A stretch of 64,000 nt of DNA from Candidatus Moraniibacteriota bacterium (GCA_049304095.1 JBAQNU010000022.1:2348-66347), one strand, 5' to 3'. Positions 8,213-32,009 are shown, counted from the stretch's first letter. The notes: generated from the letters alone by a model not told the origin. A program made the numbers and translations.

Positions 8213-8252
8213 CCTGCCTACCGCCTGCCTGCCGGTAGGCAGGGCAGGCAGG
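8213..8252. repeat. GC-rich palindromic repeat, copy 1 (CCTGCCTACC G CCTGCCTGCC / GGTAGGCAGG GCAGGCAGG)
   Basis: A roughly 40-nt island above 70 % GC that can form an imperfect hairpin of about 20 bp. Related copies occur at 20836, 22188 and 31968. Confidence 0.6.
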
Positions 8253-8304
8253 TCAAACAGGATTTTTTTAGCCAATACGGCTGACTCGGATAAATGTGTA
8301 AGTT

Positions 8305-9375
8305 ATGAAAAATAGTATGAATAATGAAAACTTAACCAAAATTCTAGTTGAGAATAATCAACCGAGTTATCGCACAGCGCAAATTCAAAAAGCCATCTAC
8401 CAAGATGGTGTTTCTGGTTTTTTGGAAATTTCAACTATTTCCAAAGAGCTGCGAGAGCTTCTAACAAAAGAATTGAGCATTTTGTCCTTCACGGTAGAAA
8501 AAGTTTTGGTTGCCAAAGATAACTGTTCTATTAAGGCACTTTTGAAATTAGCCGATGGGGAGAAGATTGAAACGGTGTTACTTTCGTCTGGCCCTGGCAA
8601 ATGGTCAGTCTGTCTTTCCTCGCAAGTTGGTTGCGCCCTAAATTGCCAATTTTGTGCCACAGGCAAAAGCGGCTTCAGGCGAAATTTAACGGCTGAAGAA
8701 ATCACTGATCAAGTTTTGTTTTGGAGACAATACTTAAATAAAAATCAAAATGCAAATCTCAAAATGCAAAATGATAATTTAAGAAACACTATTTCTAGTA
8801 TTGTCTATATGGGGATGGGGGAGCCGTTTTTGAACTGGGAAGAGGTGAAAAAAAGTTTGCGTGATCTTTTGGATAAAAAACTATTCGCCTTTGGTTCGCG
8901 TAGTATCTCCGTTTCCACCGCCGGAATTTCTGAAGGAATTGAAAAATTTGCCGAAGCGTTTCCTCAAGTCAACCTGGCCATTTCATTGCACTTTGCCAGT
9001 GACGTTAAAAGAAATGCGTATATGCCGATTAACAAAAAATATAATCTCGCGAGCCTCAAAAAAGCTTTGCAGGATTATTCTTCCAAAACCAATCGGCAAG
9101 TTTTTATTGAATACATAATGCTTTCTGGAATTAATGATAGCGAGGAAGATGCTCATGCTCTTTCCACTTATTTGAAATCGATTGGTAAGCGCCAACTATT
9201 GCACGTAAATTTAATTGCCTATAACGAAACTGGCAGTTTATTCAAGACTTCATCTGGGAATAAAACGCATTTGTTTAGAGATTGCCTGGAGAAAGGCGGC
9301 ATGAGTGTAACAATCAGAAAAAGCCTAGGACAAGAAGTCCAGGGCGCTTGTGGACAGTTGGCGGGGGAGAAGTAG
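8305..9375 (+). CDS. rlmN: 23S rRNA (adenine2503-C2)/tRNA methyltransferase, radical SAM
   Basis: CALNCQFCATG (CxxxCxxC), MGMGEPFLNWEEV, and C-terminal GACGQL are RlmN hallmarks. Confidence 0.9.
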   Translation: MKNSMNNENLTKILVENNQPSYRTAQIQKAIYQDGVSGFLEISTISKELRELLTKELSILSFTVEKVLVAKDNCSIKALLKLADGEKIETVLLSSGPGKWSVCLSSQVGCALNCQFCATGKSGFRRNLTAEEITDQVLFWRQYLNKNQNANLKMQNDNLRNTISSIVYMGMGEPFLNWEEVKKSLRDLLDKKLFAFGSRSISVSTAGISEGIEKFAEAFPQVNLAISLHFASDVKRNAYMPINKKYNLASLKKALQDYSSKTNRQVFIEYIMLSGINDSEEDAHALSTYLKSIGKRQLLHVNLIAYNETGSLFKTSSGNKTHLFRDCLEKGGMSVTIRKSLGQEVQGACGQLAGEK

Positions 9376-9467
9376 ATTAGACTTTCTTTTTTTTGCAAAA
9401 AAATTCTCGCGCGCCTCCGAAAAGCAGATTGCCAGAGTCAAAAGCGTAAGTCATGTTATGAATAAAA

Positions 9468-10502
9468 TTAGAGGATTGGTCGAAAAAGTTTAAGCAAAGT
9501 CAAAGCAAGATAGTCACCAGTTCGCATTTTGTATTTTTTCGGTTCAAATCTGGTAGAATTTTTTTTCCAGTTTTCAAAAACCTGCTCCAATTCTTGGAGC
9601 AGTTTTTTTTCACGAAAAAAGACGCCGACTTCAGAATTGAGACTGAAAGAAAAGAGATCCATATTTTGCGAACCGATCAGACCTTCCTCCTTGTCGATTA
9701 TGAGTAATTTAGCGTGATTCATTGTTCGAGAAAGGTAAAAGTTTATCCCTAGGGTGCTCAGATCGTGCATGTAGCGATAATTAAGAAGATTGACGAAAGC
9801 ATGATCGCCTCTTTTGGGAATTAATATTTCAATTGCAACTCCGCGCCGCGTTGCGTCGTCCAGAAGTGAAATGAGCCAGCGGGGAGGAGTGAAATAGGGC
9901 GTGGCAATCTGGATATTTTTTTGGGCGTTAGAAATTTTTTTGACGTAATGCTCCTTAAGAGTGTAAATATTTCTCGTTGGCCAATGTTCCAAGAGCCAAA
10001 ATCTTAGCTTGCCGGCTAGTTTTTTTTGTCGATAGCTCAGGATTTTTTCATTTTTTCCGCCGGCCATGGCATAGGTGTAGGCGAAAGATTTCAAAATTCG
10101 CTTGACTGTCCTTCCTCGCAATTCCAGCTGAAGGTCAGACCAATTTTTGAAGCGTCGTCCAATGTTCACTCCGCCAATGAAAGCAATTTTTTCGTCCACA
10201 ATGAGCACTTTGCGATGGATGTGCCGGAGCCAATGGCTGAAAAAAATAAATTCGATGCCGGATTTGATGATTGTGCTGGCGATTTCCTCTTTCAGTTCTT
10301 TGCTCCCATAGGCATCGGCGACAATGACGACGCGGATGCCTGCGCGCGCTTTGGCTCTCAATTTTCCGATGAAATCATGGCTTTTTTTAGTGTCATCAAG
10401 AAAAATATACATCTCCAGATAGATGGATTTTTGCGCGCTTTCAATGGCGCCGATCATCGCGTCCCAAGCCGTGCGTGAAGTTGTATGCAAATGGTAGTTC
10501 AT
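9468..10502 (-). CDS. Phospholipase D-family protein (cardiolipin synthase-like, two HKD motifs)
   Basis: HRKVLIVDEKIAFIGGVNIG and HAKLLIIDKEEGLIGSQNMD are the two HxKx4D motifs. Confidence 0.8.
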   Translation of the reverse strand: MNYHLHTTSRTAWDAMIGAIESAQKSIYLEMYIFLDDTKKSHDFIGKLRAKARAGIRVVIVADAYGSKELKEEIASTIIKSGIEFIFFSHWLRHIHRKVLIVDEKIAFIGGVNIGRRFKNWSDLQLELRGRTVKRILKSFAYTYAMAGGKNEKILSYRQKKLAGKLRFWLLEHWPTRNIYTLKEHYVKKISNAQKNIQIATPYFTPPRWLISLLDDATRRGVAIEILIPKRGDHAFVNLLNYRYMHDLSTLGINFYLSRTMNHAKLLIIDKEEGLIGSQNMDLFSFSLNSEVGVFFREKKLLQELEQVFENWKKNSTRFEPKKYKMRTGDYLALTLLKLFRPIL

Positions 10503-10709
10503 TTTTCAAAAAGTCTTACGATTGGTTTTAGTTTAGCATAGGTCGAGGAAAATAAAAATCAATCCTCCTGCGCTAAAGCTTCGGCGGACGAGTTAAATTC
10601 GAGTAAATTCTCCGTGGCTTGTCACGAATAGGATCTGGGGCTTGCCCTGGGGTTCATACCTTTGATTTTTGTAAGAAATTAGAATTAGTGATATAATTAA
10701 ATTAAACCT

Positions 10710-11765
10710 ATGCAATTCAAAAACTACAACGTCTATTTTTTCTTTCTGGCCTTGGCGGGCATTTCAGTTTTGACCTATTTTGTCATTAAGCCTTTTTTGG
10801 TTTCCTTTTTAATCGCGGCAATTCTCGCGCATCTTTTTGCTCCGACCTATGAGTTCATTTTGAAATGGATCAAAAATAGAGGTGTCAGTTCTTTTTTAAC
10901 TTGTCTTTTTATTGCGCTCATCATCGTTGTGCCACTCATTTTTATTTTATCGCTGGTAGTGAAAGAAATTCAAGGTATTCTGGATGACTTTAGTCTTAAT
11001 CCAGATGAAATCAGAAAATCAATTGGCGTTTTCGGACAAAACCTAAGCAACATCCCAATTTTTAGAAATTTTGATTTGGCAAAAAATGTCAACCAAGAAT
11101 CGGTGACATTAGGCATAAAAAGCCTCTCACAGCACACGCTGGGCATTTTGCAGGGAACCTATAACGGAGTGGCGCATTTTGTTTTTGTAACTTTTGTGAT
11201 GTTTTTCTCTCTCTTCTATCTGCTGATTGATGGAAAAAAATTGATAAGGAAAATAATGCAACTTAGTCCATTGCGGGATAAATATGAAAAAATACTTATT
11301 GCTAAATTTAATTCCATAACGAGAGCCACCATCAAAGGCACCACCATCATCGCCATTATTCAAGGTCTTCTGGGTGGAATGCTATTTGCTTTCACGGGCG
11401 TTCCATCTCCAGTGCTTTTGGGAATTCTGATGACTGTTGCTTCTGTCATTCCTTCTTTTGGCTCTGGTCTCGTTTGGCTCCCCGTAGGAGCTTTGATGCT
11501 CGTGTTTGGTTATTTCACCCAAGGGTTGGTGATTCTTTTGGTCGGCGGGCTAGTCATTAGCATGGTCGATAATTTCATCCGGCCAAAACTGGTGGGGCGT
11601 GACACGCAAATGCATCCGCTTTTGATTCTTTTTTCCACGCTGGGTGGAATTGCCATTTTTGGCATCTCTGGTTTTATTGTCGGACCGGTTATTATGTCAC
11701 TTTTCGTCGCTTTTTGGGAAATCTATGCGCTGGAATTTAAGGCGCAATTGAAAGAATATAACTAA
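10710..11765 (+). CDS. AI-2E family (PerM/UPF0118) membrane transporter
   Basis: Eight predicted TM segments and a C-terminal NFIRPKLVGRD...LGGIAIFGISGFIVGPV typical of the AI-2E family. Confidence 0.8.
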   Translation: MQFKNYNVYFFFLALAGISVLTYFVIKPFLVSFLIAAILAHLFAPTYEFILKWIKNRGVSSFLTCLFIALIIVVPLIFILSLVVKEIQGILDDFSLNPDEIRKSIGVFGQNLSNIPIFRNFDLAKNVNQESVTLGIKSLSQHTLGILQGTYNGVAHFVFVTFVMFFSLFYLLIDGKKLIRKIMQLSPLRDKYEKILIAKFNSITRATIKGTTIIAIIQGLLGGMLFAFTGVPSPVLLGILMTVASVIPSFGSGLVWLPVGALMLVFGYFTQGLVILLVGGLVISMVDNFIRPKLVGRDTQMHPLLILFSTLGGIAIFGISGFIVGPVIMSLFVAFWEIYALEFKAQLKEYN

Positions 11766-11919
11766 TTATCCTAAAATGGATGATTTTATGCGCTTCCTTG
11801 CTTTTTCCTGCTAACGTGCTAGTTTAGAGGCAGGAGAAGTTTTATTAAAATCCAAATCCGATTTTTTATGGAGGTGGATTTTTTCGTTATTTAACAATAA
11901 AATAGGGAGGAAATAAAGA

Positions 11920-13251
11920 ATGTCACGAAAAAAGAAAACTACGGTCATTCTTGACACCAACGTCATTCTGCATGACAGCGATTGCATCTATAACTTTGGG
12001 GATTGCGATGTCGCAATTCCCGTAACGGTTCTGGAAGAACTCGATCAGTTCAAAAAAGGCAATGAAACATTAAACGTTCATGCCCGTGAGTTCGTCCGTA
12101 CATTGGATTCGCTGTGTGATGATCACCTATTTAACGGTGGCGTGCCGATTGGACCGGGTCTGGGAAAAATCACAGTCAAGCTGGACAGGAAATTTCACGA
12201 TGATCTGGCACTCAGCTTTTCGGAATCAAAGCTGGACCATCACGTCCTTAATATCGCTTATCATATGGCCAAGGAAAATCCAGTCTTTCAGGTCATTCTG
12301 GTTACCAAAGACGTCAACTTGCGGATAAAGGCAAAATCCATTGGCCTTGTTGCTCAGGACTATAAAAGTGACCAGATCAAGGACATCTCAACTCTTTACA
12401 CGGGAAAGCGTTTGTTCGGGAATATTCCGGATGATGTGCTAACGGCTTTGTATGAAGCGCCATTCGAACTAGACCCCTCTGAGTTGCCCCTAGAAAAAGA
12501 ACTCATAGCGAACGAATATTTTATTCTCAGAAATGGCAACAGATCTGCTTTGGCTACGTATGATGCCTTTAACCAGAAAGTCCGGCGGGTCGATAAAAAC
12601 CCAGCCTACGGCATCACGCCACGCAATGCGGAGCAAACCTTTGCCCTGGACGCTCTGACTAACAATAACATCAAGTTGGTCACACTGAGTGGAAAAGCCG
12701 GCACTGGAAAAACCCTCTTGGCGCTGGCCGCGGCCTTGCAACGCAAAAAAAATTACCGTCAGATTTTTCTGGCCAGACCGATTGTTCCGCTCAGCAACAA
12801 GGACATTGGTTTTCTCCCGGGGGATATCCAATCCAAGCTGGATCCCTACATGCAACCCTTGTTCGATAATCTGAGCGTCATCAAATCCCATTTCGGCAAA
12901 AATGAATCCTCGCGTGAGGACATCAACAAACTGCTGACCGAAAACAAACTGCTCATTTCCGCCCTGGCATACATCCGTGGGCGCAGTCTGGTGAACATCT
13001 ATTTCATTGTCGATGAGGCTCAGAATCTGACCCCTCACGAAGTCAAAACCATCATCACCCGAGCGGGTGAGAACACAAAAGTCGTTTTCACTGGGGATAT
13101 TTTCCAGATTGATCATCCCTATCTCGATACCCAGTCCAACGGACTGAGCCACTTGATAGAAAAAATGCGTGGGCAAAAACTCTATGCCCACATCAACCTG
13201 GAGAAAGGCGAACGTTCGGAATTGTCCGAGCTGGCCAGTCAGATTTTATGA
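11920..13251 (+). CDS. PhoH2-type protein: N-terminal PIN domain fused to PhoH-like ATPase
   Basis: VILDTNVILHD is a PIN acidic motif. GKAGTGKT is the Walker A, and IVDEAQNL the Walker B of the PhoH domain. Confidence 0.85.
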   Translation: MSRKKKTTVILDTNVILHDSDCIYNFGDCDVAIPVTVLEELDQFKKGNETLNVHAREFVRTLDSLCDDHLFNGGVPIGPGLGKITVKLDRKFHDDLALSFSESKLDHHVLNIAYHMAKENPVFQVILVTKDVNLRIKAKSIGLVAQDYKSDQIKDISTLYTGKRLFGNIPDDVLTALYEAPFELDPSELPLEKELIANEYFILRNGNRSALATYDAFNQKVRRVDKNPAYGITPRNAEQTFALDALTNNNIKLVTLSGKAGTGKTLLALAAALQRKKNYRQIFLARPIVPLSNKDIGFLPGDIQSKLDPYMQPLFDNLSVIKSHFGKNESSREDINKLLTENKLLISALAYIRGRSLVNIYFIVDEAQNLTPHEVKTIITRAGENTKVVFTGDIFQIDHPYLDTQSNGLSHLIEKMRGQKLYAHINLEKGERSELSELASQIL

Positions 13252-13264
13252 TTTATAAGTAGTA

Positions 13265-13300
13265 GCGGGGGAACTTAACAAAGTTTCCCCGTCTTTTTTT
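13265..13300 (+). terminator. Terminator after PhoH2 gene
   Basis: CGGGGGAAC-TTAACAAA-GTTTCCCCG hairpin followed by TCTTTTTTTG. Confidence 0.6.
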
Positions 13301-13312
13301 GTAAAGATTATT

Positions 13313-13337
13313 AAAAAAGTCGAGGACGGTCCTCGAC
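13313..13337 (-). terminator. Terminator for the minus-strand NUDIX gene
   Basis: GTCGAGGA-CGGT-CCTCGAC, a perfect 8-bp stem. A T-run follows on the minus strand (AAAAAAG on plus, 13313-13319). Confidence 0.6.
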
Positions 13338-13346
13338 TAATTGTAA

Positions 13347-13757: not shown

Positions 13758-13778
13758 AATTGTAAGTATGATTATTTT

Positions 13779-14357: not shown

Positions 14358-14423
14358 AGGCTTTTATTATATCGTCGATTATATAATTACATAAAAACAG
14401 CCCGATTGAAAGGCTGTTGCTTG

Positions 14424-15215: not shown

Positions 15216-15231
15216 CGGATGTGTCAAATTG

Positions 15232-20134: not shown

Positions 20135-20826
20135 TGATTGAAGAGTTGGCGAAAAAAATCGGAGTGAAGTTCAATAAATTAGATCTCTTGCAGCAGGCCG
20201 TAACACATCGGTCCTATTTAAACGAGCATCGGGAATATAAATTGGAGCATAATGAACGCTTGGAATTTTTGGGCGACGCAGTTTTGGAGCTGGTCGTGAC
20301 GGAATATCTCTATAACAATTATCCGGAAAATCCCGAAGGCGAAATGACTAATTGGCGAGCAGCTTTGGTGTGTGGCGAGATGCTTTCTAAGATTTCCAAA
20401 GAACTTGGCGTGGAGGAATATCTCCTGATGAGCAGGGGCGAAGCCAAGGACACCGGGCGCGCACGTCAATATCTCCTGGCCAATGCTTTTGAAGCGATTA
20501 CTGGCGCAATCTATCTTGATCAAGGCAAGAAGGGATATGATGTTTGTCGCGATTTTATCTTGAAATACGTAGTGACGAAACTGCCTAACATCATCGAGAA
20601 AAAACTTTATCTTGATCCCAAAAGTCGTTTTCAAGAAGAAGCGCAAGATCGGGCGGGGGTTACTCCCAGCTATCGCGTTGTGAGTGAGAGTGGACCGGAT
20701 CATGATAAGAAATTTGTGGTGGGCGCGTTTTTGGCAGAAGAGCTGATAGCGAAAGGTGAAGGACTTTCCAAGCAAGAAGCGCAAAGAAGCGCAGCGGAAA
20801 AAGCGTTAGAAGAGAAGGGGTGGTAG
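20134..20826 (+). CDS. rnc: Ribonuclease III
   Basis: ERLEFLGDAVLELVVTEYLY signature; C-terminal dsRBD. Apparent GTG start. Confidence 0.9.
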   Translation: MIEELAKKIGVKFNKLDLLQQAVTHRSYLNEHREYKLEHNERLEFLGDAVLELVVTEYLYNNYPENPEGEMTNWRAALVCGEMLSKISKELGVEEYLLMSRGEAKDTGRARQYLLANAFEAITGAIYLDQGKKGYDVCRDFILKYVVTKLPNIIEKKLYLDPKSRFQEEAQDRAGVTPSYRVVSESGPDHDKKFVVGAFLAEELIAKGEGLSKQEAQRSAAEKALEEKGW

Positions 20827-20835
20827 GAATGAGTA

Positions 20836-20874
20836 GCCTGCCTACTCCGCCAGCTGGCGGATTCGGCAGGCGAG
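20836..20874. repeat. GC-rich palindromic repeat, copy 2
   Basis: GCCTGCCTAC TCCGCCAG|CTGGCGGA TTCGGCAGGC, 10 nt after the rnc stop. The inner 8-bp palindrome is perfect. Confidence 0.55.
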
Positions 20875-20983
20875 CAAGAATTAAAAAAAAGGTGTTTAGT
20901 GAATCTCGTGAAAGCGGGATTTTGTTTTTTTGGGAAAAGTATAGTAAGATAAAAATACATGTAGCACGCTGTATGATGACTTT

Positions 20984-23371
20984 ATGTTTTTGAAAAAACT
21001 AGAAATTAATGGTTTTAAATCTTTTGCCACCAAAACGGTGGTGGATTTTTCGGTGTCCAATAGTGAGAATGGTACGCCGGGAATCACAGCTATTGTTGGA
21101 CCAAATGGCAGTGGAAAATCCAATATTGCGGATGCGATGCGTTGGGTGATTGGTGAGCAATCAATGAAAAATTTGCGCAGCAAAAAAGCTGAAGATATCA
21201 TTTTTGCCGGTTCAGGAAAAAAAGCCAAATTAGGCAGTGCGCAAGTGACACTTTTTTTTGACAACAGCGAAAAACGGATTCCGCTGGATTTTTCGGAAGT
21301 AGCTGTATCGCGCAAAATTTTTCGCAGTGGCGAGAGTGAATATTTGATTAACGGTTCGCGTGTGAGGTTGCAAGACGTGGTGGATATTTTGGCCAAAGCC
21401 GGAGTGGGAAAAGAAAGTCATGCCATCATCAATCAAGGGATGGCCGACGCAGTTTTGAACGCCACTCCACTGGAACGGCGCTTTGTAATTGAAGAAGCGG
21501 CTGGGGTGAAGCAATATCAAATTAAAAAAGAACGTTCGCTCCGCAAAATGGAAACAACTAAGGAAAATTTGCTCAGAGTGGGGGAGCTGATTGAAGAAAT
21601 TCGACCACACCTGAAAGTCTTGAAACGCCAAGCGGAAAAAGCAGCGCAGAGCGAGATTGTGACAAGGGAGCTGAAAGAAAAACAAACTTTGCTCTATACT
21701 TATCTATGGAATAAATTTACGGCCGAAAAATTGAGATTGAGCGAAGAAAAAGATGAGTTGGGGCGACGTATGAACAATATTCAAAGAGAAGCGGATAAGC
21801 TGGCCGATGAAATTAGTAGCCATTCCAAAGAAGAAAAAGCCAATGAAAAGTTGGCGGAGCTGGAAAAAAAGCAAAGAGAAAAAAGAAATCAACTCAACGA
21901 TTTGGAGCGAGAGGCGCTCTTGCTTTCTGGGCGAGTGGAAATTGAGAGAGAAAAACAAAAAAGCATCCAAATTATCGAAGAGATTAAGATTAAAAGTCAA
22001 TTGGTGGATTTGGGTTATGTTAAAAGTAATTTGGATGAAATCCGACGTGACCAAGAAATGCTCATAAAAAAACTAAATGAAGCTCAGAATTTAGCGGAGC
22101 TGAAAAGCGTGCAGGATTTGGCCCAAAAAATCGGCCAAAAGCTGACTGAGTTGAAAGGGGATATTGAAAAGGGCCATACCTACCTACCTGCTACGCAGGC
22201 AGTCCGGCAGGCAAGCAAGAAAGAAGAAAAAATTCCTGATTCAAAACCCAAATTAGCCATCGTGCCCAAAATTGATACCCCGCTAATTTTAGAACTTAAC
22301 GCACAAATCAAAAAGGCGCGGGAAAATTTTAGCGCGCTGGAGGTGGAACTCAAAGATATTGCCGAGGAGATTCAAAAAGAGGTGGCGTTGGACCGAGAAA
22401 GGCGTCAGCAGTTTTTTCAGGTTGAGCGCGATTTGCGTCAAAAACAAGAAGAAGCGAATACTTTTCGCGATCGCTTTAATGATTCCAAGATTTCTCTGGC
22501 TAAAATTGAAGTGCGCGAAGAAGATTTGAAGGCGCGCGTTACCGAAGAATTGAAAATGGATGTTGAACTTTTGAGCAAGGAACCGCAGGAAGTGGCTGAT
22601 CAATTTGCGCTGGAAAGAGAAATTGCTAAATTGAAATTTCAAATGGAACAAATCGGAGGTATCGATCCACTCGTTCTCACTGAATATGATGAAACAGAAA
22701 AGCGCTTTCAATTTCTAACAGCCGAATCGCAAGATTTGGAAAATGCACTGGTTTCTTTGCGCGAAGTGGTGCGAGAGATGGAGAAAAAAGTGAATGAAAA
22801 GTTTCATGCTACTTTTGATGAAATCAACAAGGAATTTTCCAAATATTTTCGCATTATTTTTGGCGGAGGGGATGCGCACCTGACCAAGGTCAACATCCGT
22901 CCGCGAAAAACGAAAGAAATTTTGACGGAATTGGAAACGCCTGATGCGACGCAGGAAAAAGAAGAATCTCCGGAAGACGATTTGTCAGATGATGAAAAGA
23001 ACGAAATTGGCATTGATATCTCGGCTTGCCCTGCGGGAAAAAGAATTAGTAATCTTTCGATGCTTTCTGGCGGTGAACGTTCACTTACATCGCTCGCACT
23101 CCTTTTTGCCATCATTGCTCACAACCCGCCACCTTTTTCCATTCTAGATGAAGTTGAGGCGGCTTTGGACGAGGCTAACTCCAAAAGATTTGGGCGCATC
23201 ATTCAAGATCTTTCTGCCCGCACGCAATTTGTGACCATCACGCATAACCGCGAAACAATGCGTCAAGCGGCTCTGCTCTATGGTGTGACGATGGGCGAGG
23301 ACGGAATGTCAAAATTGCTTTCTGTGCGAATTGATCAGGTGGGACAGGGCGGAAAAATTTTGCAGGCCTAA
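20984..23371 (+). CDS. smc: SMC-family chromosome partition ATPase, unusually short (795 aa), no recognisable hinge
   Basis: N-terminal head: LEINGFKSF, GPNGSGKSNIADAMRWVIGEQS. C-terminal head: LSGGERSLTSLALLFAI, ILDEVEAALDE. Coiled-coil heptads lie between. The mid-region GHTYLPATQAVRQASKKEEKIPDSKPK is low-complexity and partly encoded by the GC-rich repeat. Confidence 0.8.
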   Translation: MFLKKLEINGFKSFATKTVVDFSVSNSENGTPGITAIVGPNGSGKSNIADAMRWVIGEQSMKNLRSKKAEDIIFAGSGKKAKLGSAQVTLFFDNSEKRIPLDFSEVAVSRKIFRSGESEYLINGSRVRLQDVVDILAKAGVGKESHAIINQGMADAVLNATPLERRFVIEEAAGVKQYQIKKERSLRKMETTKENLLRVGELIEEIRPHLKVLKRQAEKAAQSEIVTRELKEKQTLLYTYLWNKFTAEKLRLSEEKDELGRRMNNIQREADKLADEISSHSKEEKANEKLAELEKKQREKRNQLNDLEREALLLSGRVEIEREKQKSIQIIEEIKIKSQLVDLGYVKSNLDEIRRDQEMLIKKLNEAQNLAELKSVQDLAQKIGQKLTELKGDIEKGHTYLPATQAVRQASKKEEKIPDSKPKLAIVPKIDTPLILELNAQIKKARENFSALEVELKDIAEEIQKEVALDRERRQQFFQVERDLRQKQEEANTFRDRFNDSKISLAKIEVREEDLKARVTEELKMDVELLSKEPQEVADQFALEREIAKLKFQMEQIGGIDPLVLTEYDETEKRFQFLTAESQDLENALVSLREVVREMEKKVNEKFHATFDEINKEFSKYFRIIFGGGDAHLTKVNIRPRKTKEILTELETPDATQEKEESPEDDLSDDEKNEIGIDISACPAGKRISNLSMLSGGERSLTSLALLFAIIAHNPPPFSILDEVEAALDEANSKRFGRIIQDLSARTQFVTITHNRETMRQAALLYGVTMGEDGMSKLLSVRIDQVGQGGKILQA
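22188..22228 (+). repeat. GC-rich repeat, intragenic in-frame copy inside smc
   Basis: CCTACCTACCTGCTACGCAGGCAGTCCGGCAGGCAAGCAAG. Its 3' half (CGGCAGGCAAGCAAGAAAGAAG) matches copy 2's 3' flank (CGGCAGGCGAGCAAGAATTAAA). Confidence 0.5.
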
Positions 23372-24642: not shown

Positions 24643-24653
24643 AAAGAGCCATT

Positions 24654-26348: not shown

Positions 26349-26352
26349 GTTA

Positions 26353-26383
26353 GGAGTTACACATTTCACCTCACAGCCGCATA
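26353..26383 (+). repeat. Conserved 3'-flank motif, copy B (GGAGTTACACATTTCACCTCACAGCCGCATA)
   Basis: 26/30 identical to 8087-8117. Placed 5 nt after the stop codon. Confidence 0.5.
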
Positions 26384-26402
26384 AGCCATAGAAGTAAAAA
26401 AT

Positions 26403-27422
26403 ATGCTGAAATACTTTAATCCATTCCTCATTGCATTCCTACTCACTAATCTGATTATTTTCCTGGTTAATTTAGCGGCGCAAAGAATCCATTGGGCGGC
26501 GCGTAGCGAGGGGCGGCATATCCACCCCAAGAATATTTATCGCATCGGTGGCATTGCTATGGTTTTGGCGTTTAATCTTTCACTTATGCTCAATCGTGAT
26601 TTGGTGTTCACGCCAGAGCTTGTGGGCTTCATGCTCGCTTCACTCATTTTGATGCTTGTGGGCGCTTGGGACGACTTTCGCGAACTATATTGGAAGACCC
26701 AACTTTTTTTTCAATTTGCCATTTCCGTTTTCATCTTCATTGTCGGCGTACGCATCTACTACATCACCAATCCTTTTTCTGCTGGCGTGATTAATCTTGA
26801 TTTGGGTGGCACCGTGCTCATTTCTTTGGCCCTGGTGATTTTCTGGATTATGCTTGTTATGAATGCCGTCAACTGGCTTGATGGCGTGGATGGACTTTCT
26901 GGTGGAGTGACTCTCATCTCGCTCATTACTATTTTCTTTTTGAGCTTTCGCCCGGAAGTTAATCAACCACCGATTGCCATCATCGCTGTCATTCTCATCG
27001 GCACACTTTCCAGTTTTTTAGTTTTCAATTTTAATCCGGCTAAAATTTTAGCCGGAACAGCGGGGGCGATGTTTATGGGACTTTCGCTCTCCGTTCTCGC
27101 AATTTTTTCCGGTACCAAGATTGCCACCGCCGCGTTAGTGCTCGCTATTCCCATTCTTGATTTTGTTTGGGTGATTGGGGAGCGGATAAAAAAAGGCAAA
27201 TCCATTTTTTTGGCCGACAAAAATCATCTGCATCATAAGCTTTTGGAAATTGGCTGGTCGCAAAAAAAGATTGCGCTGGTCTATTATACTATTACACTAC
27301 TCATTGCGGTCGTGGCGCTAAACACCCGAACTATTGGCAAAACCATCACTCTTTCGCTTTTTGGACTGATTATGCTCTTGGTCTTTTGGGGGATTAACAG
27401 AAAGTTGGCTCAGTCGCGCTAG
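26403..27422 (+). CDS. Glycosyltransferase family 4, polyprenyl-phosphate sugar-1-phosphate transferase (MraY/WecA-like)
   Basis: VMNAVNWLDGVDGLSGG motif and about 10 TM segments. It is not in the dcw cluster, so probably WecA/TagO-like rather than MraY. Confidence 0.85.
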   Translation: MLKYFNPFLIAFLLTNLIIFLVNLAAQRIHWAARSEGRHIHPKNIYRIGGIAMVLAFNLSLMLNRDLVFTPELVGFMLASLILMLVGAWDDFRELYWKTQLFFQFAISVFIFIVGVRIYYITNPFSAGVINLDLGGTVLISLALVIFWIMLVMNAVNWLDGVDGLSGGVTLISLITIFFLSFRPEVNQPPIAIIAVILIGTLSSFLVFNFNPAKILAGTAGAMFMGLSLSVLAIFSGTKIATAALVLAIPILDFVWVIGERIKKGKSIFLADKNHLHHKLLEIGWSQKKIALVYYTITLLIAVVALNTRTIGKTITLSLFGLIMLLVFWGINRKLAQSR

Positions 27423-27434
27423 GTCACGATTGTA

Positions 27435-27474
27435 AAACAAAAACACTCTCGGGTAAACGAGAGTGTTTTTGTTT
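27435..27474. terminator. Bidirectional terminator between convergent genes
   Basis: AAAACAAAAACACTCTCG-GGTAAA-CGAGAGTGTTTTTGTTT, a perfect 16-17-bp stem with T/A runs on both sides. Confidence 0.75.
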
Positions 27475-27542
27475 GGTCGGGTAATGTTATACCAAACTAA
27501 TTTCTGTAAAAAAGGTACAAGGTTTAGCTTAACGCATAAACT

Positions 27543-28190
27543 CTAAGTCAAAGAGGGCACTCGGAGCGCGTATTTGTGCAAATTATTGAGTTGTCCAGCG
27601 CTGAGGTTCTTGGATTTTGAAATTGCGTCCCCAATCAGACTCTTGGAAAATTCGATCGATGTTCCTATGTGCACTCCACCTGTGTGGGCTACATTTTTGC
27701 GCAGATAGTCTTCAATATAGATCTTGTGTTCCGGAGTAAGGCTCGTGTCAGCATTTTTCTCCAAATAATCCGCAAGTGCTTTTCTGGCCAATTTGGTAGC
27801 GCTATCTCCTGTGCCGGCTGTTTCAACGAAAGCTCCGTCAGTTTCTTGACTAGTGGTTACTGAAGAAGTTTGTTGTTTTTCCGCTACTGGCGTCTTTGTG
27901 GCGCTAGAGTCATCTGCAGTAGTCGTGTCTTTCGCGCTAGAATCTTCGCTGGTCACATCTTTAAGTAAATCATTCTGTTCCGTTTGATCCGCAGTTGTGT
28001 CTACTTGCGATCGATTGGAATAGGAATAGATTCCGATGGCGATAATTATAACGATAAAGATACTAACAAGCACTCTCAGATTGTCTTGAAACCATTGCTT
28101 TGTTCCGTTTTCTGTTTCGGCATTTTCTTCCTCGCTAACAGTTTGGTCGTTCTCATCATTTGTCTCTTGATTGAATTCCATAATTTTCAC
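27543..28190 (-). CDS. Hypothetical membrane-anchored protein (acidic N-terminus, single TM)
   Basis: VLVSIFIVIIIAIGIYSY TM segment. The rest is unassigned. Confidence 0.45.
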   Translation of the reverse strand: MKIMEFNQETNDENDQTVSEEENAETENGTKQWFQDNLRVLVSIFIVIIIAIGIYSYSNRSQVDTTADQTEQNDLLKDVTSEDSSAKDTTTADDSSATKTPVAEKQQTSSVTTSQETDGAFVETAGTGDSATKLARKALADYLEKNADTSLTPEHKIYIEDYLRKNVAHTGGVHIGTSIEFSKSLIGDAISKSKNLSAGQLNNLHKYALRVPSLT

Positions 28191-28401
28191 CTTCCTTTCT
28201 ATTTTACCCCGTGTCCCAAGCGTTGGGATTTCACGAAGTTTTAAATTATTAATGTGCTTGCGTTGAAGCTATGATTGTCTTGGCTTTCGACAATCGTCTC
28301 TCTAAGATAAAGTTTAACTCATCTAAAACTCGCGTCAACTAGACAATTTTAGTGTTTCGACGTGTAGTATGAAAAGACTTTAGTTAACCTCAGCTAATTT
28401 A

Positions 28402-28410
28402 TGCTATAAT
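28402..28410 (+). promoter_or_regulatory. Extended -10 (TGcTATAAT) upstream of patatin gene
   Basis: TGCTATAAT about 20 nt upstream of the ATG. The -35 is weak. Confidence 0.35.
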
Positions 28411-28428
28411 GAAAAAATAGAAGTTATA

Positions 28429-29289
28429 GTGAAAAAAGAAATTATGCTAAAAAAGAAAAAACAGGAATGTCCCAAAATCGGCCTTGCGCTCAGTGGTGGC
28501 TCAGCACTCGGAATCGCTCACATTGGCGCGATTAAGGCTTTGCGTGAAAACAAGATTCCGCTCCATTGCGTTTCTGGCACAAGCGCGGGTGCGATTGTGG
28601 CGACAGCCTTGGCTTTTGGCGTTCCATTGGAAAAAATGATTGAGCTTTCATGCCGCCTGAGCTGGTCCAATATTTCTGAGTTTGGCTATTCCAAACTAGG
28701 GCTCAATTCCAATTGGCCAGTGGGAGAGATTATGATTAAATTAGTGGGGGATAAGAAAATCGAAGACGCTCCAATTCCCCTGGCTATCATTGCTACCGAC
28801 ATTGATACGGGAGAAAAGATTGTTTTTCGCAAAGGTAGCGTGGCGGATGCTGTGCGGGCCAGCACGTGTTTGCCGGGATTTTTCATTCCGACTAAAGTCA
28901 AAGGCAAGCGGTTGGTTGATGGGGGATTGGTAGAGAATTTGCCACTTTCTCCTCTGCGAAAAATGGGAGCGGATGTGCGCATCGGTGTTGATCTTGGGCA
29001 CTTTCGCACGCTCAAAAAAACACATAATATTTTGGATGTAATCACGAATTCCTATAACATTCTCATTAAACCGCAAGAAAATATTCTCGTGGAAGATGCG
29101 GAGGTGCTTATTGAACCGCATTTGGAAAAATTTCATTCCACTGACTTTAAAAAAGCAGATGAGTTGATTCAGTCGGGATATCAAGCCACTAAGCTAAAAA
29201 TTCCCCAGATCAAAAAATATTTAGGGCGAAAAATCAAACCGGAATCCAAAAGCTTTTGGCAAAAGTGGGTGGATCTTTTTCGGAAATAG
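28429..29289 (+). CDS. Patatin-like phospholipase
   Basis: GLALSGGSALGIAHIG (GGxG), GTSAG (GxSxG), and DGG catalytic Asp. Confidence 0.85.
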   Translation: MKKEIMLKKKKQECPKIGLALSGGSALGIAHIGAIKALRENKIPLHCVSGTSAGAIVATALAFGVPLEKMIELSCRLSWSNISEFGYSKLGLNSNWPVGEIMIKLVGDKKIEDAPIPLAIIATDIDTGEKIVFRKGSVADAVRASTCLPGFFIPTKVKGKRLVDGGLVENLPLSPLRKMGADVRIGVDLGHFRTLKKTHNILDVITNSYNILIKPQENILVEDAEVLIEPHLEKFHSTDFKKADELIQSGYQATKLKIPQIKKYLGRKIKPESKSFWQKWVDLFRK

Positions 29290-29340
29290 TAAGTCATAAT
29301 AGTGCTAAACTGGCTTGACTGAAAAGGAAAGGCAAAAACT

Positions 29341-30132
29341 ATGAATATTATCGAAGTTAAAAATTTAGTTAAAAAATTTGATGACATCACGGCAGTGGAC
29401 GACATCTCTTTTTCGGTCGAAAAAGGTAAAATTTTTGCTTTTCTTGGACCAAATGGCGCGGGCAAAACTACGACCATCAAAATGTTTACCACGCTTCTTC
29501 AACCAACCAGCGGAAAAATTCTTGTGAATGGTTATGATCCAGTCACCAATTCCGATGATGTGCGTTGCTCTTTTGGCATCATTTTTCAAGACCCAAGTCT
29601 TGACGATGAACTGACAGCGTTTGAAAATTTGGAATTTCACGGTGTGCTCTATGACGTGCCAAAAAAAATCCGTCGCAATCGCATTGAAGAATTATTGAAA
29701 ATAGTTGAGCTGGAAAAACGGCGCGATGATTTGGTGAAAGAATTTTCTGGTGGCATGAAGCGACGCCTCGAAATTGCTCGCGGGCTACTTCACCACCCGA
29801 AAATTATTTTTCTCGATGAGCCAACGCTTGGGCTTGACCCGCAAACCAGAAATCATCTATGGGGATATATCAAAGAGATGAATGAAAAAGAGGGGATTAC
29901 GGTTTTTTTCAGTACGCACTACATGGAAGAAGCTGACCGGATGTCAGATCGGATTGCTATTATTGATAATGGCAAGATTGTGGCAGAAGGGACGGCGGAG
30001 GAGTTGAAGGCGAAAACTAACGCTAAAACGCTGGAGGATGCCTTTCTGCAGCTAACGGGAAAACAAATCCGCGAAGAAGGGGCAAATGCTATGGATAATT
30101 TAAGAACAATGCGACGCGTATGGAGAAGATAG
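29341..30132 (+). CDS. ABC transporter ATP-binding protein (ABC-2/DrrA-type)
   Basis: GPNGAGKTT Walker A, LSGGMKRR signature, ILDEPT Walker B. Confidence 0.9.
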   Translation: MNIIEVKNLVKKFDDITAVDDISFSVEKGKIFAFLGPNGAGKTTTIKMFTTLLQPTSGKILVNGYDPVTNSDDVRCSFGIIFQDPSLDDELTAFENLEFHGVLYDVPKKIRRNRIEELLKIVELEKRRDDLVKEFSGGMKRRLEIARGLLHHPKIIFLDEPTLGLDPQTRNHLWGYIKEMNEKEGITVFFSTHYMEEADRMSDRIAIIDNGKIVAEGTAEELKAKTNAKTLEDAFLQLTGKQIREEGANAMDNLRTMRRVWRR

Positions 30133-30887
30133 GAAAATATTCTAAAGTGATTTACATTTTGTGGCTTCGTCAACTGAAGCGTTATTCGCGTTCCCGCGCG
30201 AGAATCATTGGTTCTCTTGCTCAACCAACTCTTTTTCTCGTGGCAATGGGTTTTGGTTTTGGGCCGATCTATCAAAAAGCGGGCGGTGGCAATTATATCC
30301 AATTTATCGCTCCTGGCATTATCGCCATGAGCATCATTTTCACCGCCATGTTTGGCGGAATGGAGGTGATCTACGATCGACAATTTGGCTTTTTGAAAGA
30401 AACGCTCGTCGCTCCAGTTCCTCGCTGGACGATTATGCTTGGGCGCACTCTCGGCGGAGCGACTGTGGCAACATTGCAGGGACTCGTGGTTTTTTTCATT
30501 GCTCTCGTCGTTGGCTTTCGGCCGGAAAATATGTTCTTTGCCCCGCTCGCGCTAGTTTATATGGCACTCATCGCCATTTCTTTCACAGCGCTCGGTACAG
30601 CGATTGCCTCAACAATGGAAGATATGCAAGCCTTTCCACTCGTTATGAATTTTCTCATTATGCCTCTGTTCTTTTTGTCTGGTGCTCTTTTTCCACTTAC
30701 CGGACTTCCCAAAGTCATCCAAATCGTAATCCGTGTCAACCCTTTGTCCTACGGCGTCGACGGCATCCGAGGCATCCTCACTGGCCAACTTCATTTCGCC
30801 TATCACACTGATTTTCTCGTGCTCTTCTTCTTTGCCACCGTAGCCCTCGCCGCCGGCAGTTATCTTTTTTCGAAAATTGAGGTTTAG
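30120..30887 (+). CDS. ABC-2 type transporter permease
   Basis: Overlaps the ATPase stop. Six TM segments. Typical ABC-2 exporter arrangement. Confidence 0.8.
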   Translation: MEKIGKYSKVIYILWLRQLKRYSRSRARIIGSLAQPTLFLVAMGFGFGPIYQKAGGGNYIQFIAPGIIAMSIIFTAMFGGMEVIYDRQFGFLKETLVAPVPRWTIMLGRTLGGATVATLQGLVVFFIALVVGFRPENMFFAPLALVYMALIAISFTALGTAIASTMEDMQAFPLVMNFLIMPLFFLSGALFPLTGLPKVIQIVIRVNPLSYGVDGIRGILTGQLHFAYHTDFLVLFFFATVALAAGSYLFSKIEV

Positions 30888-30908
30888 AAGATTTAGATTA
30901 TTTCTTGG

Positions 30909-30936
30909 CCATCCTCCAGTTTGGGGATGGTTTTTC
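30909..30936 (+). terminator. Terminator after ABC permease
   Basis: CCATCC-TCCAGTTTGG-GGATGG followed by TTTTTC. Confidence 0.55.
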
Positions 30937-30939
30937 TAT

Positions 30940-30967
30940 TTGACAAGATTTTTAATAATGATATGAT
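30940..30967 (+). promoter_or_regulatory. Promoter TTGACA-N16-TATGAT upstream of AntA-like gene
   Basis: TATTTGACAAGATTT. The same 15-mer recurs at 31893-31907 upstream of csoR. Confidence 0.45.
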
Positions 30968-30996
30968 ATCAGTATAATTATTTAAAAACAAAAAAA

Positions 30997-31884
30997 ATGA
31001 ACGAGCTAATAAATATAAAAGTGATCCAAAAGGATTTTAATGGTGAGAAAAAGAGATTTGTGAATGCCAGAGAGTTATATAATTGGCTTGGCGTAGGCAG
31101 GGACTTTTCCAATTGGATAAAAGATAGGATTACGAAATATGACTTCGTGGAAGATCTCGATTTTTTTCTCGCCTTCGCCAAATTTGGCGATGGATTCGAA
31201 GGCTTTAATAAGGCAAAAGCTATTGACCCCAAAACTGGTAAGATATTAGCTAGAGAGTATGTCATCTCAATTGATATGGCTAAAGAACTGGCGATGCTTG
31301 AAAACAACGAAAGGGGGAAAATGGTTAGAAAGTATTTCATTCGAGTGGAAAGTGATTTCAAAAAGGTGATGCGAGTTGCTAAGATGGATCCGAAATTCAT
31401 CAATCAATTGGCGAGCCAGTTTTTTGAAACCAGAGAGGAAACGAAAGAATTTCGTCGAGATTTCACAGACTCTATCAAAGATTTCGTCGCAGTGAAAAAT
31501 TATGGAACATACACGGATATGCTTTATAATTTTTTGTTTCTGGAAAGAGCCAAGGAATATCGCAAACTTCTAAATCTTGCCAAAAAAGATTTTACTAGAA
31601 ATTATATGTACGAGGAAATAATTTTTACCATCGGCGCTTTTGAAACAGGGCTTTCTGGCGAGGTGGAAAAAGCTGCCAAGAAATTAAAAAGGCTGCTAAC
31701 CCAAAAAGAATTTGAGAAAATTTTCCAAGAATTTTCTGCTCAAAGGAATTGGCTGGCCTATCAAAAAAGAGCGAGAAATATTATGGCGACTTACGACGAG
31801 GAACTGCGTCGAATCAAGCATCCGAAGTTGATTGATTACCGCAAAGAATTTAGTCAGGAGGATATTCAGAAGTTGTTGGGGTGA
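30997..31884 (+). CDS. Phage antirepressor-like protein (AntA-type N-terminal domain)
   Basis: FNGEKKRFVNARELYNWLGVGRDFSNWIKDRITKYDFVEDLDF matches my recollection of the AntA/ORF6N phage domain (…VVSARELHEFL…DFS.WIK.RI.KYGF.E..DF). The C-terminal 200 aa are unassigned. Confidence 0.55.
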   Translation: MNELINIKVIQKDFNGEKKRFVNARELYNWLGVGRDFSNWIKDRITKYDFVEDLDFFLAFAKFGDGFEGFNKAKAIDPKTGKILAREYVISIDMAKELAMLENNERGKMVRKYFIRVESDFKKVMRVAKMDPKFINQLASQFFETREETKEFRRDFTDSIKDFVAVKNYGTYTDMLYNFLFLERAKEYRKLLNLAKKDFTRNYMYEEIIFTIGAFETGLSGEVEKAAKKLKRLLTQKEFEKIFQEFSAQRNWLAYQKRARNIMATYDEELRRIKHPKLIDYRKEFSQEDIQKLLG

Positions 31885-31896
31885 GGTAGATTTTAT

Positions 31897-31940
31897 TTGA
31901 CAAGATTTCCAAGGGGAGTATATTATACCTAGGGGGGAGG
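31897..31940 (+). promoter_or_regulatory. Promoter (TTGACA-N16-TATATT) with overlapping candidate CsoR operator ATACCTAGGGGGGAGGTGT
   Basis: The -35 is at 31897-31902. The ACCT-G6-AGGT pseudo-palindrome at 31925-31940 has the G-tract inverted-repeat shape described for CsoR operators. Confidence 0.4.
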
Positions 31941-31967
31941 TGTTTCAAATGCAAAATGTAAAAATCA

Positions 31968-32009
31968 CCTTGCCTACCCTGCCTACCGGACAGGCAGGCG
32001 GCAGGCAGG
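31968..32009. repeat. GC-rich palindromic repeat, copy 3 (in csoR 5' leader)
   Basis: CCTTGCCTACC CTGCCTACC GGA CAGGCAGG CGGCAGGCAGG. Confidence 0.55.

What the first reader, a model, noticed from the sequence alone, without database searches (positions are those of the whole stretch)
8213..32009. Dispersed GC-rich CCTGCCTACC/GGCAGGCAGG palindromic repeat, including an in-frame copy inside smc
Three intergenic copies (8213, 20836, 31968) are 40-nt islands above 70 % GC in an otherwise AT-rich genome, and each can form an imperfect long hairpin. A fourth copy (22188-22228) sits inside smc, exactly where the hinge should be. There it is translated as LPATQAVRQASKK. Its 3' flank matches the 3' flank of the rnc-proximal copy. 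This looks like a REP-like element family that can be exapted into coding sequence.
Basis: seen in the sequence. Interest (0 to 1): 0.55.

Follow-up and report, generated by a model that had tools for sequence, protein, structure and literature searches.

The report
Tiny cross-phylum mobile DNA palindrome
The four GC-rich hairpins are copies of a 20-base DNA palindrome that also occurs, letter for letter, in many unrelated bacterial phyla and phages, slips in-frame into essential genes, and nearly always sits beside one family of tiny nuclease genes at tRNA genes.

Summary
The window is from a Candidatus Moranbacteria (CPR) genome. It carries four copies of one element, whose core is the 20-bp palindrome CCTGCCTRCC|GGYAGGCAGG ("P1").

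- 8213-8252: one P1 nested in the centre of another.
- 20836-20871: P1 arms around a second palindrome, TCCGCCAGCTGGCGGA.
- 31969-32009: a doubled P1.
- 22175-22216: an in-frame 42-nt insert in the smc-like gene. Relatives at the same site are empty, carry 21 nt, or carry 42 nt. The insert arose at least twice.

- The matching 3' flank is native smc sequence.
- This short SMC has no hinge domain; the insert lies in the coiled-coil apex loop.
- The genome is 42% GC.

Beyond the finding:
- The exact 20-mer occurs in more than 120 genomes from many phyla and at 57 phage-contig sites. Two control palindromes gave 0 hits.
- It inserts as exactly 20 nt with no target duplication.
- It has no stop codon in any frame. 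It also sits in-frame in TrpRS, FtsK and RmlB elsewhere.
- It interrupts the duplicated tRNA fragment next to a ~78-aa GIY-YIG nuclease gene in 6 of 6 independently fetched loci.

It resembles REP elements but fails their defining tests. The insertion mechanism is inferred, not shown. I found no published description.

The parts
8213..8252 (.). Nested double P1. The outer copy CCTGCCTACCG|GCAGGCAGG is split by the inner copy CCTGCCTGCCGGTAGGCAGG (8224-8243). It lies between the Nramp gene (stop 8083) and rlmN (start 8305).
   Evidence: The same nested form occurs in other phyla (L025, L031, L064, L070, L115).
20836..20871 (.). Composite element. P1-type arms GCCTGCCTAC (20836-20845) and GGCAGGC (20865-20871) enclose a second palindrome family, P2 = TCCGCCAGCTGGCGGA (20846-20861). 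It starts 10 nt after the rnc stop codon. A separate terminator-like hairpin with a T-run follows at 20901-20922.
   Evidence: P2 occurs at 56 viral-contig sites against 13 for an arm-swapped control.
22175..22216 (+). In-frame 42-nt insert in the smc-like gene (aa 398-411, HTYLPATQAVRQAS). It is a decayed 21-nt P1 (CATACCTACC...GGCAGGCAAGC) with a second decayed 21-nt copy (22185-22205) nested at its centre.
31969..32009 (.). Doubled P1: CTTGCCTAC-CCTGCCTAC-CGGACAGGCAGG-CGGCAGGCAGG. It lies between an AntA-like gene (stop 31884) and a csoR-like gene (start 32056).
20984..23371 (+). Host gene of the intragenic copy: a short (795 aa) SMC_N-family ATPase typical of Moranbacteria, with no hinge domain hit.

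Best explanation
The four features are solo copies of a minute, non-coding, mobile DNA palindrome, P1 (CCTGCCTRCC|GGYAGGCAGG). They occur as single, self-nested, composite or decayed forms.

Shown:
- P1 enters DNA as an exact 20-nt unit without target-site duplication. A 21-nt form is seen in coding sequence.
- It often nests in the centre of another copy, giving 40-42-nt forms.
- It has no stop codon in any of the six frames. Inserts of 21 or 42 nt in tolerant protein loops therefore persist: the smc apex loop here, and TrpRS, FtsK, RmlB and a histidine kinase elsewhere.
- Presence differs among near-identical strains, so turnover is recent.
- The same 20-mer is spread over many bacterial phyla and phage contigs.
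- It is a near-constant part of a horizontally transferred cassette. The cassette is a ~78-aa GIY-YIG nuclease gene next to a tRNA (mostly tRNA-Leu) gene, plus a duplicated tRNA fragment. P1 interrupts that fragment at a stem-loop junction.

Inferred:
- P1 is a non-autonomous passenger of these cassettes. The small GIY-YIG nuclease would nick hairpin or stem-loop DNA, and P1 would be copied or ligated into the break. Copies that land in dispensable hairpins, intergenic DNA or protein loops survive.
- I put the nuclease-as-mobiliser step at about 0.35-0.4. The rest of the statement is better supported.
- In this window the copies are most likely neutral or selfish. Once transcribed, the intergenic copies form stable RNA hairpins that may incidentally stabilise 3' ends. 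They are not canonical terminators.
For: Repeat and hairpins.

Insertion polymorphism at one nucleotide position of smc:
- Empty in L001-L003, whose SMC is 95% identical.
- 21 nt in L004 and in L005.
- 42 nt in the window.

Independent gains: the insert occurs in a tip clade and separately in P0008, whose sister sequences are all empty.

Relatives:
- L001, L348 and L349 carry no P1 in 44 kb.
- L004 (8 kb) carries only its smc copy.
- L005 carries 4 copies in 22 kb.

Cross-phylum spread:
They come from CPR, Bacteroidota, Omnitrophota, Planctomycetota, Nitrospirota, Chloroflexota, Proteobacteria and others.
- My own calculation, assuming equal base frequencies, expects about 2 sites in 596 Gb.
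- Viral contigs hold 57 sites. An arm-swapped control and a scrambled control each gave 0.

Exact 20-nt insertion without target duplication, judged against an intact tRNA copy in the same locus: L057, L098, L168, L267.

In-frame inserts elsewhere. The TrpRS alignment to PDB 1yi8 shows a 7-residue gap exactly at GLPAGRQ.

GIY-YIG link:
- 5 of 10 GIY-YIG ORFs in 1.4 Mb of held sequence lie within 100 bp of a P1.
- 17 of 18 over-called N-termini of family members read through P1 peptides such as DLPAGRQAQN or PACRQAG.
- 6 of 6 loci fetched by the protein alone have P1 or a P1-like palindrome in the tRNA fragment: Moranbacteria, Salinimicrobium, Bacteroidales, Mucilaginibacter, Patescibacteria, Ohtaekwangia.
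- Family members are 61-77% identical across CPR and Bacteroidota, which implies horizontal transfer.
Against: - No biochemical or genetic evidence shows that a GIY-YIG nuclease mobilises P1.
- GIY-YIG enzymes form no covalent DNA intermediate, so a ligation or copying step must be supplied by something else.
- Only about 3% of sampled P1 sites lie next to such a gene.
- The 64-kb window holds no family-B GIY-YIG gene. It holds only a different GIY-YIG family with its own inverted repeats.
- Solo copies prefer hairpin loops only modestly: 11.4% against 5.8% for random positions.
- The association could arise because tRNA fragments are the only dispensable hairpin DNA in a region prone to insertion.
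- Genome-wide copy numbers could not be counted, and the genome scan was truncated.
- No effect on RNA or protein was tested.
Confidence: 0.7

Rival explanations
1. P1 is an ordinary REP/REPIN family, mobilised on single-stranded DNA by a REP-associated tyrosine (Y1/HUH) transposase. The GIY-YIG association is incidental.
For: - It is 20-40 bp, GC-rich and palindromic, and lies mostly between co-directional genes.
- It makes no target duplication, as in IS200/IS605-type chemistry.
- Intragenic REPs are documented (PMC3733652).
- An IS110-family element has inserted into a P1 (L274), as described for REPs (PMC1525189, title and abstract).
Against: - There is no unpaired GTAG or CGTC tag and no conserved flank.
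- No shared transposase-like ORF family lies within 2.5 kb of 120 genomic sites.
- The sequence is identical across more than 8 phyla, unlike REP-RAYT pairs, which differ between species.
- P1 is present in 6 of 6 GIY-YIG cassettes.
Confidence: 0.12
2. P1 does not move on its own. It travels only inside the GIY-YIG/tRNA cassette by homing. Solo copies are scars left when the cassette is deleted by recombination between its duplicated tRNA segments.
For: - The cassette architecture A-P1-B ... A-B would leave A-P1-B after a crossover in segment B.
- Tandem cassettes and arrays of fragments exist (L273, L277).
Against: - It would require a cassette to have sat inside essential genes (smc, trpS, ftsK) and then to have left exactly 21 or 42 in-frame nt.
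- Self-nested copies and copies in phage intergenic DNA far from any tRNA are not explained.
- Solo flanks show no tRNA-derived sequence.
Confidence: 0.1
3. The hairpins are host-encoded functional signals, such as terminators, mRNA-stabilising stem-loops or protein-binding sites. They would be maintained by selection, and the similar sequences would have arisen by convergence of a simple (CCTG)n/(CAGG)n motif.
For: - The predicted RNA hairpins are strong.
- The intergenic positions lie downstream of genes.
- The arms have a 4-nt periodicity.
Against: - No U-tract follows the hairpins, while canonical terminators occur elsewhere in the window.
- No Rfam family matches.
- The element is absent from close relatives at the same loci.
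- It occurs inside ORFs and tRNA fragments.
- Arm-swapped and scrambled palindromes of the same composition gave 0 hits, against 57 sites for P1. Convergence on this exact 20-mer is therefore implausible.
Confidence: 0.05
4. It is a chance similarity or an assembly or sequencing artefact.
For: Most carriers are metagenome-assembled genomes.
Against: - The shuffle controls argue against chance.
- Insert lengths are in-frame (21, 21 and 42 nt) and copies have decayed by point mutation.
- The same insert appears in independent assemblies and sources.
- The element is present in cultured isolates: Salinimicrobium sediminis, Mucilaginibacter psychrotolerans and Winogradskyella echinorum.
Confidence: 0.01

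Closest known systems
REP / REPIN elements (GTAG- and CGTC-tagged REPs; RAYT-associated)
   Same: Both are short GC-rich palindromes that are dispersed and mostly intergenic. Both are occasionally intragenic, make no target duplication, and serve as targets for IS110-family insertion.
   Different: P1 has no end tag and no RAYT nearby. It is identical across many phyla and phages, is only 20 nt long, nests in its own centre, and is tied to GIY-YIG/tRNA cassettes.
Rickettsia palindromic elements (RPE)
   Same: Both are palindromic selfish DNA inserted in-frame into unrelated housekeeping genes and tolerated in surface loops (PMC10969869).
   Different: RPEs are about 100-150 bp, encode a conserved peptide module and are confined to Rickettsia. 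P1 adds 7 residues (or 14 when nested) and is found across phyla.
Yeast mitochondrial GC clusters
   Same: Both are short GC-rich palindromes in a genome of lower GC content. Both are mostly intergenic, occur as optional in-frame inserts in a protein gene (var1), recombine to form composite forms, and coexist with free-standing endonuclease genes (PMC8811140).
   Different: GC clusters are organellar, carry short terminal repeats read as target duplications, and vary between species. P1 shows no target duplication and is conserved to the letter.
MITEs
   Same: Both are non-coding and built from inverted-repeat arms, and both are presumed to be mobilised in trans.
   Different: MITEs are 50-500 bp, make target duplications and derive from a DDE insertion sequence with the same ends. 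None of these holds for P1.
Free-standing GIY-YIG homing endonuclease genes, e.g. phage T4 SegB in the tRNA gene cluster (own knowledge)
   Same: Both involve a small GIY-YIG gene lodged beside tRNA genes and spread horizontally.
   Different: The cassettes here are ~78-aa catalytic domains only. Their closest solved relative is UPF0213 EF2693, at a weak E-value of 0.009. They carry a duplicated tRNA fragment that is interrupted by P1.
IS200/IS605 'peel-and-paste' elements (own knowledge)
   Same: Both use hairpin DNA, make no target duplication, and plausibly act on single-stranded DNA.
   Different: P1 has no Y1 transposase gene and no defined tetranucleotide target. There is only a bias: C or A before the element and C or T after it.

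Membership tests
REP (tagged REPs / REPINs) | Short (20-40 bp) imperfect palindrome, dispersed in many copies, mainly extragenic | tested here: met
   There are four copies in 64 kb, three of them intergenic. Of the other-genome sites that could be placed, 59 of 69 are intergenic.
REP (tagged REPs / REPINs) | Unpaired GTAG or CGTC tetranucleotide at one end (PMC3733652) | tested here: not met
   178 sites show no conserved flank. The 60 oriented asymmetric copies show only a one-base bias on each side.
REP (tagged REPs / REPINs) | Cognate RAYT (Y1 transposase) gene flanked by the repeats | tested here: inconclusive
   Clustering of ORFs within 2.5 kb of 120 genomic P1 sites found no shared transposase family; the largest clusters span 5 loci. 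One RAYT per genome would rarely be sampled this way.
REP (tagged REPs / REPINs) | Family sequence specific to a species or a narrow clade | tested here: not met
   The identical 20-mer occurs in CPR, Bacteroidota, Omnitrophota, Planctomycetota, Nitrospirota, Chloroflexota, Proteobacteria and phage contigs.
MITE | Target-site duplication on insertion | tested here: not met
   The insertion is exactly 20 nt, with no duplication, when compared with the intact tRNA copy in the same locus (L057, L098, L168, L267).
MITE | Parent autonomous element carrying the same terminal inverted repeats | tested here: not met
   No GIY-YIG or other ORF lies between split P1 arms in 1.66 Mb of held loci.
Rickettsia palindromic elements | In-frame insertion into functional protein genes | tested here: met
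   smc; TrpRS; FtsK, RmlB and a histidine kinase.
Rickettsia palindromic elements | ~100-150 bp element encoding a conserved peptide module, restricted to Rickettsia | tested here: not met
   P1 is 20-21 nt (7 aa), or 42 nt when nested, and is found across phyla.
Intrinsic (Rho-independent) terminator | GC-rich hairpin followed immediately by a U/T tract | tested here: not met
   None of the P1 hairpins was called as a terminator. Canonical terminators were called at 9582, 13265 and 16973. The sequences after the hairpins are TCAAACAGG, GAGCAAGAATTAAAAAAAA and AAATGAAAAA.
Known RNA families (Rfam 15) | Match at or above the gathering score | tested here: not met
   Only a tRNA and the L10 leader were found in the window.
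GIY-YIG/tRNA cassette companion (as defined in this report) | P1 interrupting a duplicated tRNA fragment adjacent to a ~78-aa GIY-YIG gene | tested here: not met
   This is true in 6 of 6 fetched family-B loci. The four window copies, however, are solo: the window holds no family-B gene and no tRNA fragment.
Mobile element in the general sense | Empty and filled alleles at the same site in close relatives | tested here: met
   At one smc position the alleles carry 0, 21 or 42 nt. The insert was gained independently in a lineage whose SMC is 76% identical to the window's.
Mobile element in the general sense | Demonstrated transposition or homing activity | not testable with these tools
   This needs genetics or biochemistry.

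The most novel reading that the evidence does not exclude
P1 would be the smallest known horizontally spreading mobile DNA: 20 nt, all hairpin. It would be inserted without target duplication at stem-loop junctions by a minimal, structure-specific GIY-YIG nuclease encoded by tRNA-gene-associated cassettes. That would be a transposition or homing mode not described for any element. It would decorate proteins, tRNA genes and intergenic DNA across many bacterial phyla and their phages.
Probability: 0.3. Interest if true: 0.9.

Novelty: new variant of a known kind. Interest (0 to 1): 0.75.

Why it matters
If the picture holds, a 20-nt sequence is moving between bacterial phyla and phages and writing 7-residue insertions (LPAGRQ, PACRQAG, PAYRQAG) into essential proteins and tRNA genes.

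Practical consequences:
- It gives a simple marker for recent horizontal traffic among uncultivated lineages (CPR, Bacteroidota, Omnitrophota).
- It is a source of gene-calling errors. Several SMC and GIY-YIG N-termini in databases are over-extended through P1.
- It is a natural set of tolerated loop insertions.

Scientific consequences:
- The constant pairing with a catalytic-domain-only GIY-YIG nuclease at tRNA-Leu genes makes a long-standing question testable: how very short palindromic repeats that lack a transposase are mobilised.
- Cultured hosts are available for such tests (Salinimicrobium sediminis, Mucilaginibacter psychrotolerans).

Tried and rejected
1. **Canonical terminators.** Rejected: no T-run follows the hairpins, and the scan does not call them.
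2. **Known RNA family.** None matches.
3. **RAYT or another transposase next to P1.** ORF clustering around 120 sites found none.
4. **P1 arms as terminal repeats of a GIY-YIG gene.** No split-arm case exists. The window's own GIY-YIG (family A) uses different arms, and P1 is rare around that family: 2 copies in about 200 kb.
5. **Strict targeting of hairpin loops.** The enrichment is only about 2-fold. Adjacent flanks are not complementary in register, and there is no target duplication beyond a slight 1-nt excess.
6. **Orientation bias relative to the flanking genes.** 5 same against 5 opposite, so uninformative.
7. **Cultured phage and plasmid collections.** Only marginal partial matches.
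8. **Removal at the RNA level (intron-like), suggested by the tRNA positions.** Disfavoured: coding inserts keep the frame (21, 21 and 42 nt, plus 7-aa inserts elsewhere).
9. **P1 as 'immunity' disruption of the nuclease site at the cassette junction.** Weakened: P1 lies in the D, anticodon or T loop of the fragment, away from the junction near the variable arm.
10. **Literature.** The 20-mer, its sub-strings and the encoded peptides appear in no held paper in this context. Topic searches found only the REP, RPE and mitochondrial GC-cluster analogues.
11. **AlphaFold model of the SMC.** Low confidence (pLDDT 62), so I used it only for secondary structure.


Full report
**Observation.**
- CCTGCCTACC with up to 1 mismatch occurs 10 times in the window, against 1.0 expected.
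- No shuffle produced a near-match to the 20-mer.
- The three intergenic copies are 71-75% GC. They fold into strong hairpins of -23 to -31 kcal/mol, with z from -2.9 to -4.2.
- The smc copy is 62% GC. It folds poorly on the sense strand.
- The window is 42% GC and has many other GC-rich 30-mers, so GC content alone is not the signal.
- SMC homologues place the window in Candidatus Moranbacteria, a member of the CPR/Patescibacteria.

**Anatomy.** The unit is a 20-bp palindrome, CCTGCCTRCC|GGYAGGCAGG, called P1 here.
- 8213-8252 is one P1 inserted into the centre of another.
- 31969-32009 is a doubled form, (CCTGCCTAC)2(CGGCAGGCAGG)2, with two changes.
- 20836-20871 has P1 arms around a different palindrome, TCCGCCAGCTGGCGGA (P2). 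P2 recurs in seven other held loci from several phyla. It is about 4-fold over-represented against an arm-swapped control in viral contigs: 56 sites against 13.
- None of the copies is followed by a T-run. Canonical terminators are called elsewhere in the window.
- Rfam has no match at these sites.

**The smc copy is an insertion.**
- An alignment of 32 orthologues shows a 14-residue insert, HTYLPATQAVRQAS, between DIEKG and KKEEK.
- At the DNA level the site is empty in a 95%-identical orthologue: GAAAAAGGT|AAAAAAGAA in L001-L003. L004 carries 21 nt (CATACCTACCGGCAGGCAAGT). L005, whose SMC is 76% identical, also carries 21 nt (CATGCCTACCGGCAGGCAGGC). The window carries 42 nt, which is the 21-nt form with a second 21 nt nested at CC^GG.
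- A neighbour-joining tree places the insert in a tip clade and, separately, in P0008, whose sister sequences are all empty. The same nucleotide position was therefore hit at least twice.
- The protein family has no hinge domain hit.
- A low-confidence AF2 model (pLDDT 62) predicts two long helical arms, residues 175-396 and 433-626, joined by a non-helical loop at 397-432. The insert (398-411) opens that loop.
- Relatives L001, L348 and L349 have no P1 in 44 kb. In L348 the rnc-smc spacer is only 31 nt.

**P1 is not confined to this lineage.**
They come from CPR groups, Bacteroidota (including cultured isolates), Omnitrophota, Planctomycetota, Nitrospirota, Chloroflexota, Gamma- and Deltaproteobacteria, Bdellovibrionales and Ignavibacteria. 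The flanks are not conserved.
- With equal base frequencies, about 2 sites would be expected in 596 Gb. This is my own calculation.
- Viral contigs hold 57 sites. An arm-swapped palindrome and a scrambled palindrome of the same composition each gave 0.
- The perfect palindrome is the commonest variant (119 copies). The asymmetric TACC..GGCA variant follows with 60.

**Coding and RNA-gene insertions elsewhere.**
- P1 has no stop codon in any frame.
- It lies in-frame in FtsK (NANLPAGRQAADV), TrpRS, a histidine kinase, RmlB (nested form) and membrane proteins.
- Against the solved TrpRS structure 1yi8, the alignment shows a 7-residue gap exactly at GLPAGRQ.
- About 10 of 101 sites in genomes of 50% GC or less lie inside long ORFs. 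Of the rest, 44 lie between co-directional genes, 9 between convergent genes and 6 between divergent genes.
- P1 also lies in tRNA sequences. In L157 it sits in the variable region, and ARAGORN still calls a tRNA-Met.

**Link to GIY-YIG cassettes.** Several P1 sites lie in a truncated copy of a tRNA. That fragment is followed by an ORF of about 78 aa, then by the intact tRNA.
- The ORF is a bare GIY-YIG domain. Its closest solved relative is UPF0213 EF2693, a weak match at E = 0.009.
- An HMM of this family finds 10 ORFs in the 1.4 Mb held. Five lie within 100 bp of a P1.
- A database search finds 594 relatives at 61-77% identity in both Patescibacteria and Bacteroidota.
- 17 of 18 over-called N-termini read through P1 peptides.
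- All 6 loci fetched by protein identity alone show P1 or a close variant inside the duplicated tRNA-Leu fragment, at a D-, anticodon- or T-arm stem-loop junction. In Salinimicrobium and Mucilaginibacter these occur in tandem arrays. In one Bacteroidales locus the P1 is cut by an IS110-family insertion.
- Comparison with the intact tRNA copy shows an exact 20-nt insertion with no target duplication.

**Mechanism.**
- Shown: P1 is a discrete 20-nt unit. It is gained and lost between close relatives, nests in itself, is shared across phyla, and co-travels with a horizontally transferred nuclease cassette.
- Inferred: the nuclease creates the break that admits P1. Alternatives are a RAYT-type transposase, cassette-deletion scars and host function. 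These are weighed in the rival explanations.
- Flank statistics give only weak target rules. For the asymmetric variant, the base before is C or A in 55 of 60 copies and the base after is C or T in 58 of 60. Hairpin loops are enriched about 2-fold.

**Comparison with known systems.**
- P1 resembles REPs in form and RPEs in its in-frame behaviour. It also resembles yeast mitochondrial GC clusters, which are palindromic, optional in var1 and coexist with endonuclease genes.
- It fails the REP tag test, the REP species-specificity test and the MITE target-duplication test.
- No held paper prints the 20-mer or its peptides.

**Verdict.** The finding is real. In this window the copies are probably selfish or neutral DNA. 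The interest lies in what the family is.

Noticed in passing
window 62291-62576: An 85-aa GIY-YIG ORF (62306-62563, PF01541) sits between perfect inverted repeats, ACCCCCACACCAATT(ATG) and (CAT)AATTGGTGTGGGGGT. In 33 of 57 related metagenome loci with enough flank, both arms are present around the ORF. Some copies lie at the 5' end of a tRNA gene. This looks like a small mobile GIY-YIG element, and it is distinct from the P1-associated family.
   Followed up: partly
window 20826-20984 compared with L001 8413-10001, L004 2322-3965 and L348 5156-5188: The rnc-smc junction is a variable slot. In two close relatives it holds a two-gene cassette: a 158-aa protein plus a KilA-N or ORF6N DNA-binding protein. 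In the window it holds the P1/P2 composite. In an 82%-identical relative it is only a 31-nt spacer. The window's own AntA-like gene (30997-31884) is followed by the 31969 copy.
   Followed up: partly
L157 2239-2330 (also L128, L143): In these phage contigs, P1 sits between the anticodon arm and the T arm of a tRNA. ARAGORN still calls L157 a 92-nt tRNA-Met, as if P1 were a long variable arm.
   Followed up: partly
L274 about 937-1210 (Bacteroidales MAG): An IS110-family transposase element is inserted inside a P1 copy: CCTGCCTGCCGG|... This resembles the known preference of IS110/IS1111 elements for REP palindromes.
   Followed up: no
L033, L062, L078, L097, L109; L022, L103, L151, L152; L059: Further GC-rich palindromes are shared between unrelated genomes. 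They include TCCCGATAGCTATCGGGA, CCCTCTCCTTTGGAGAGGG (sometimes fused to P1, once in-frame in a histidine kinase) and CCCGCCCGTACCGAACGGGTACGTTCGGGCGGG in a tRNA D-loop. Together they suggest a wider set of such elements.
   Followed up: partly
window 52933-62022: A 3029-aa ORF carries about 25 copies of a GC-rich DNA motif, GGCAACGTCGGCATCGGGACGAC, spaced about 200-300 nt apart. It is a large repeat protein. I did not examine it further.
   Followed up: no
database proteins P0012, P0013, P0015, P0016, P0029 (SMC) and many GIY-YIG entries: Public gene calls are over-extended at the N-terminus because P1 has no stop codon. The spurious peptides include CLPAGRQ, PAYRQAG and PACPACLPVGK.
   Followed up: partly
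L004 about 3998-4030 (SMC head domain); P0027 and P0062: Other orthologues carry different short in-frame inserts after the DFS motif of the SMC head: PARNAIVADG, RNASHSDADGASVE and ASLGRDG. The L004 DNA, CCTGCCCGAAATGCTATCGTTGCAGACGGGGCG, is GC-rich and partly palindromic. These may belong to another element family.
   Followed up: no
window 22467-22474: GCGATCGC, the sequence of the cyanobacterial HIP1 octamer, lies at the centre of a weak palindrome inside smc. It is a single occurrence and probably chance.
   Followed up: no
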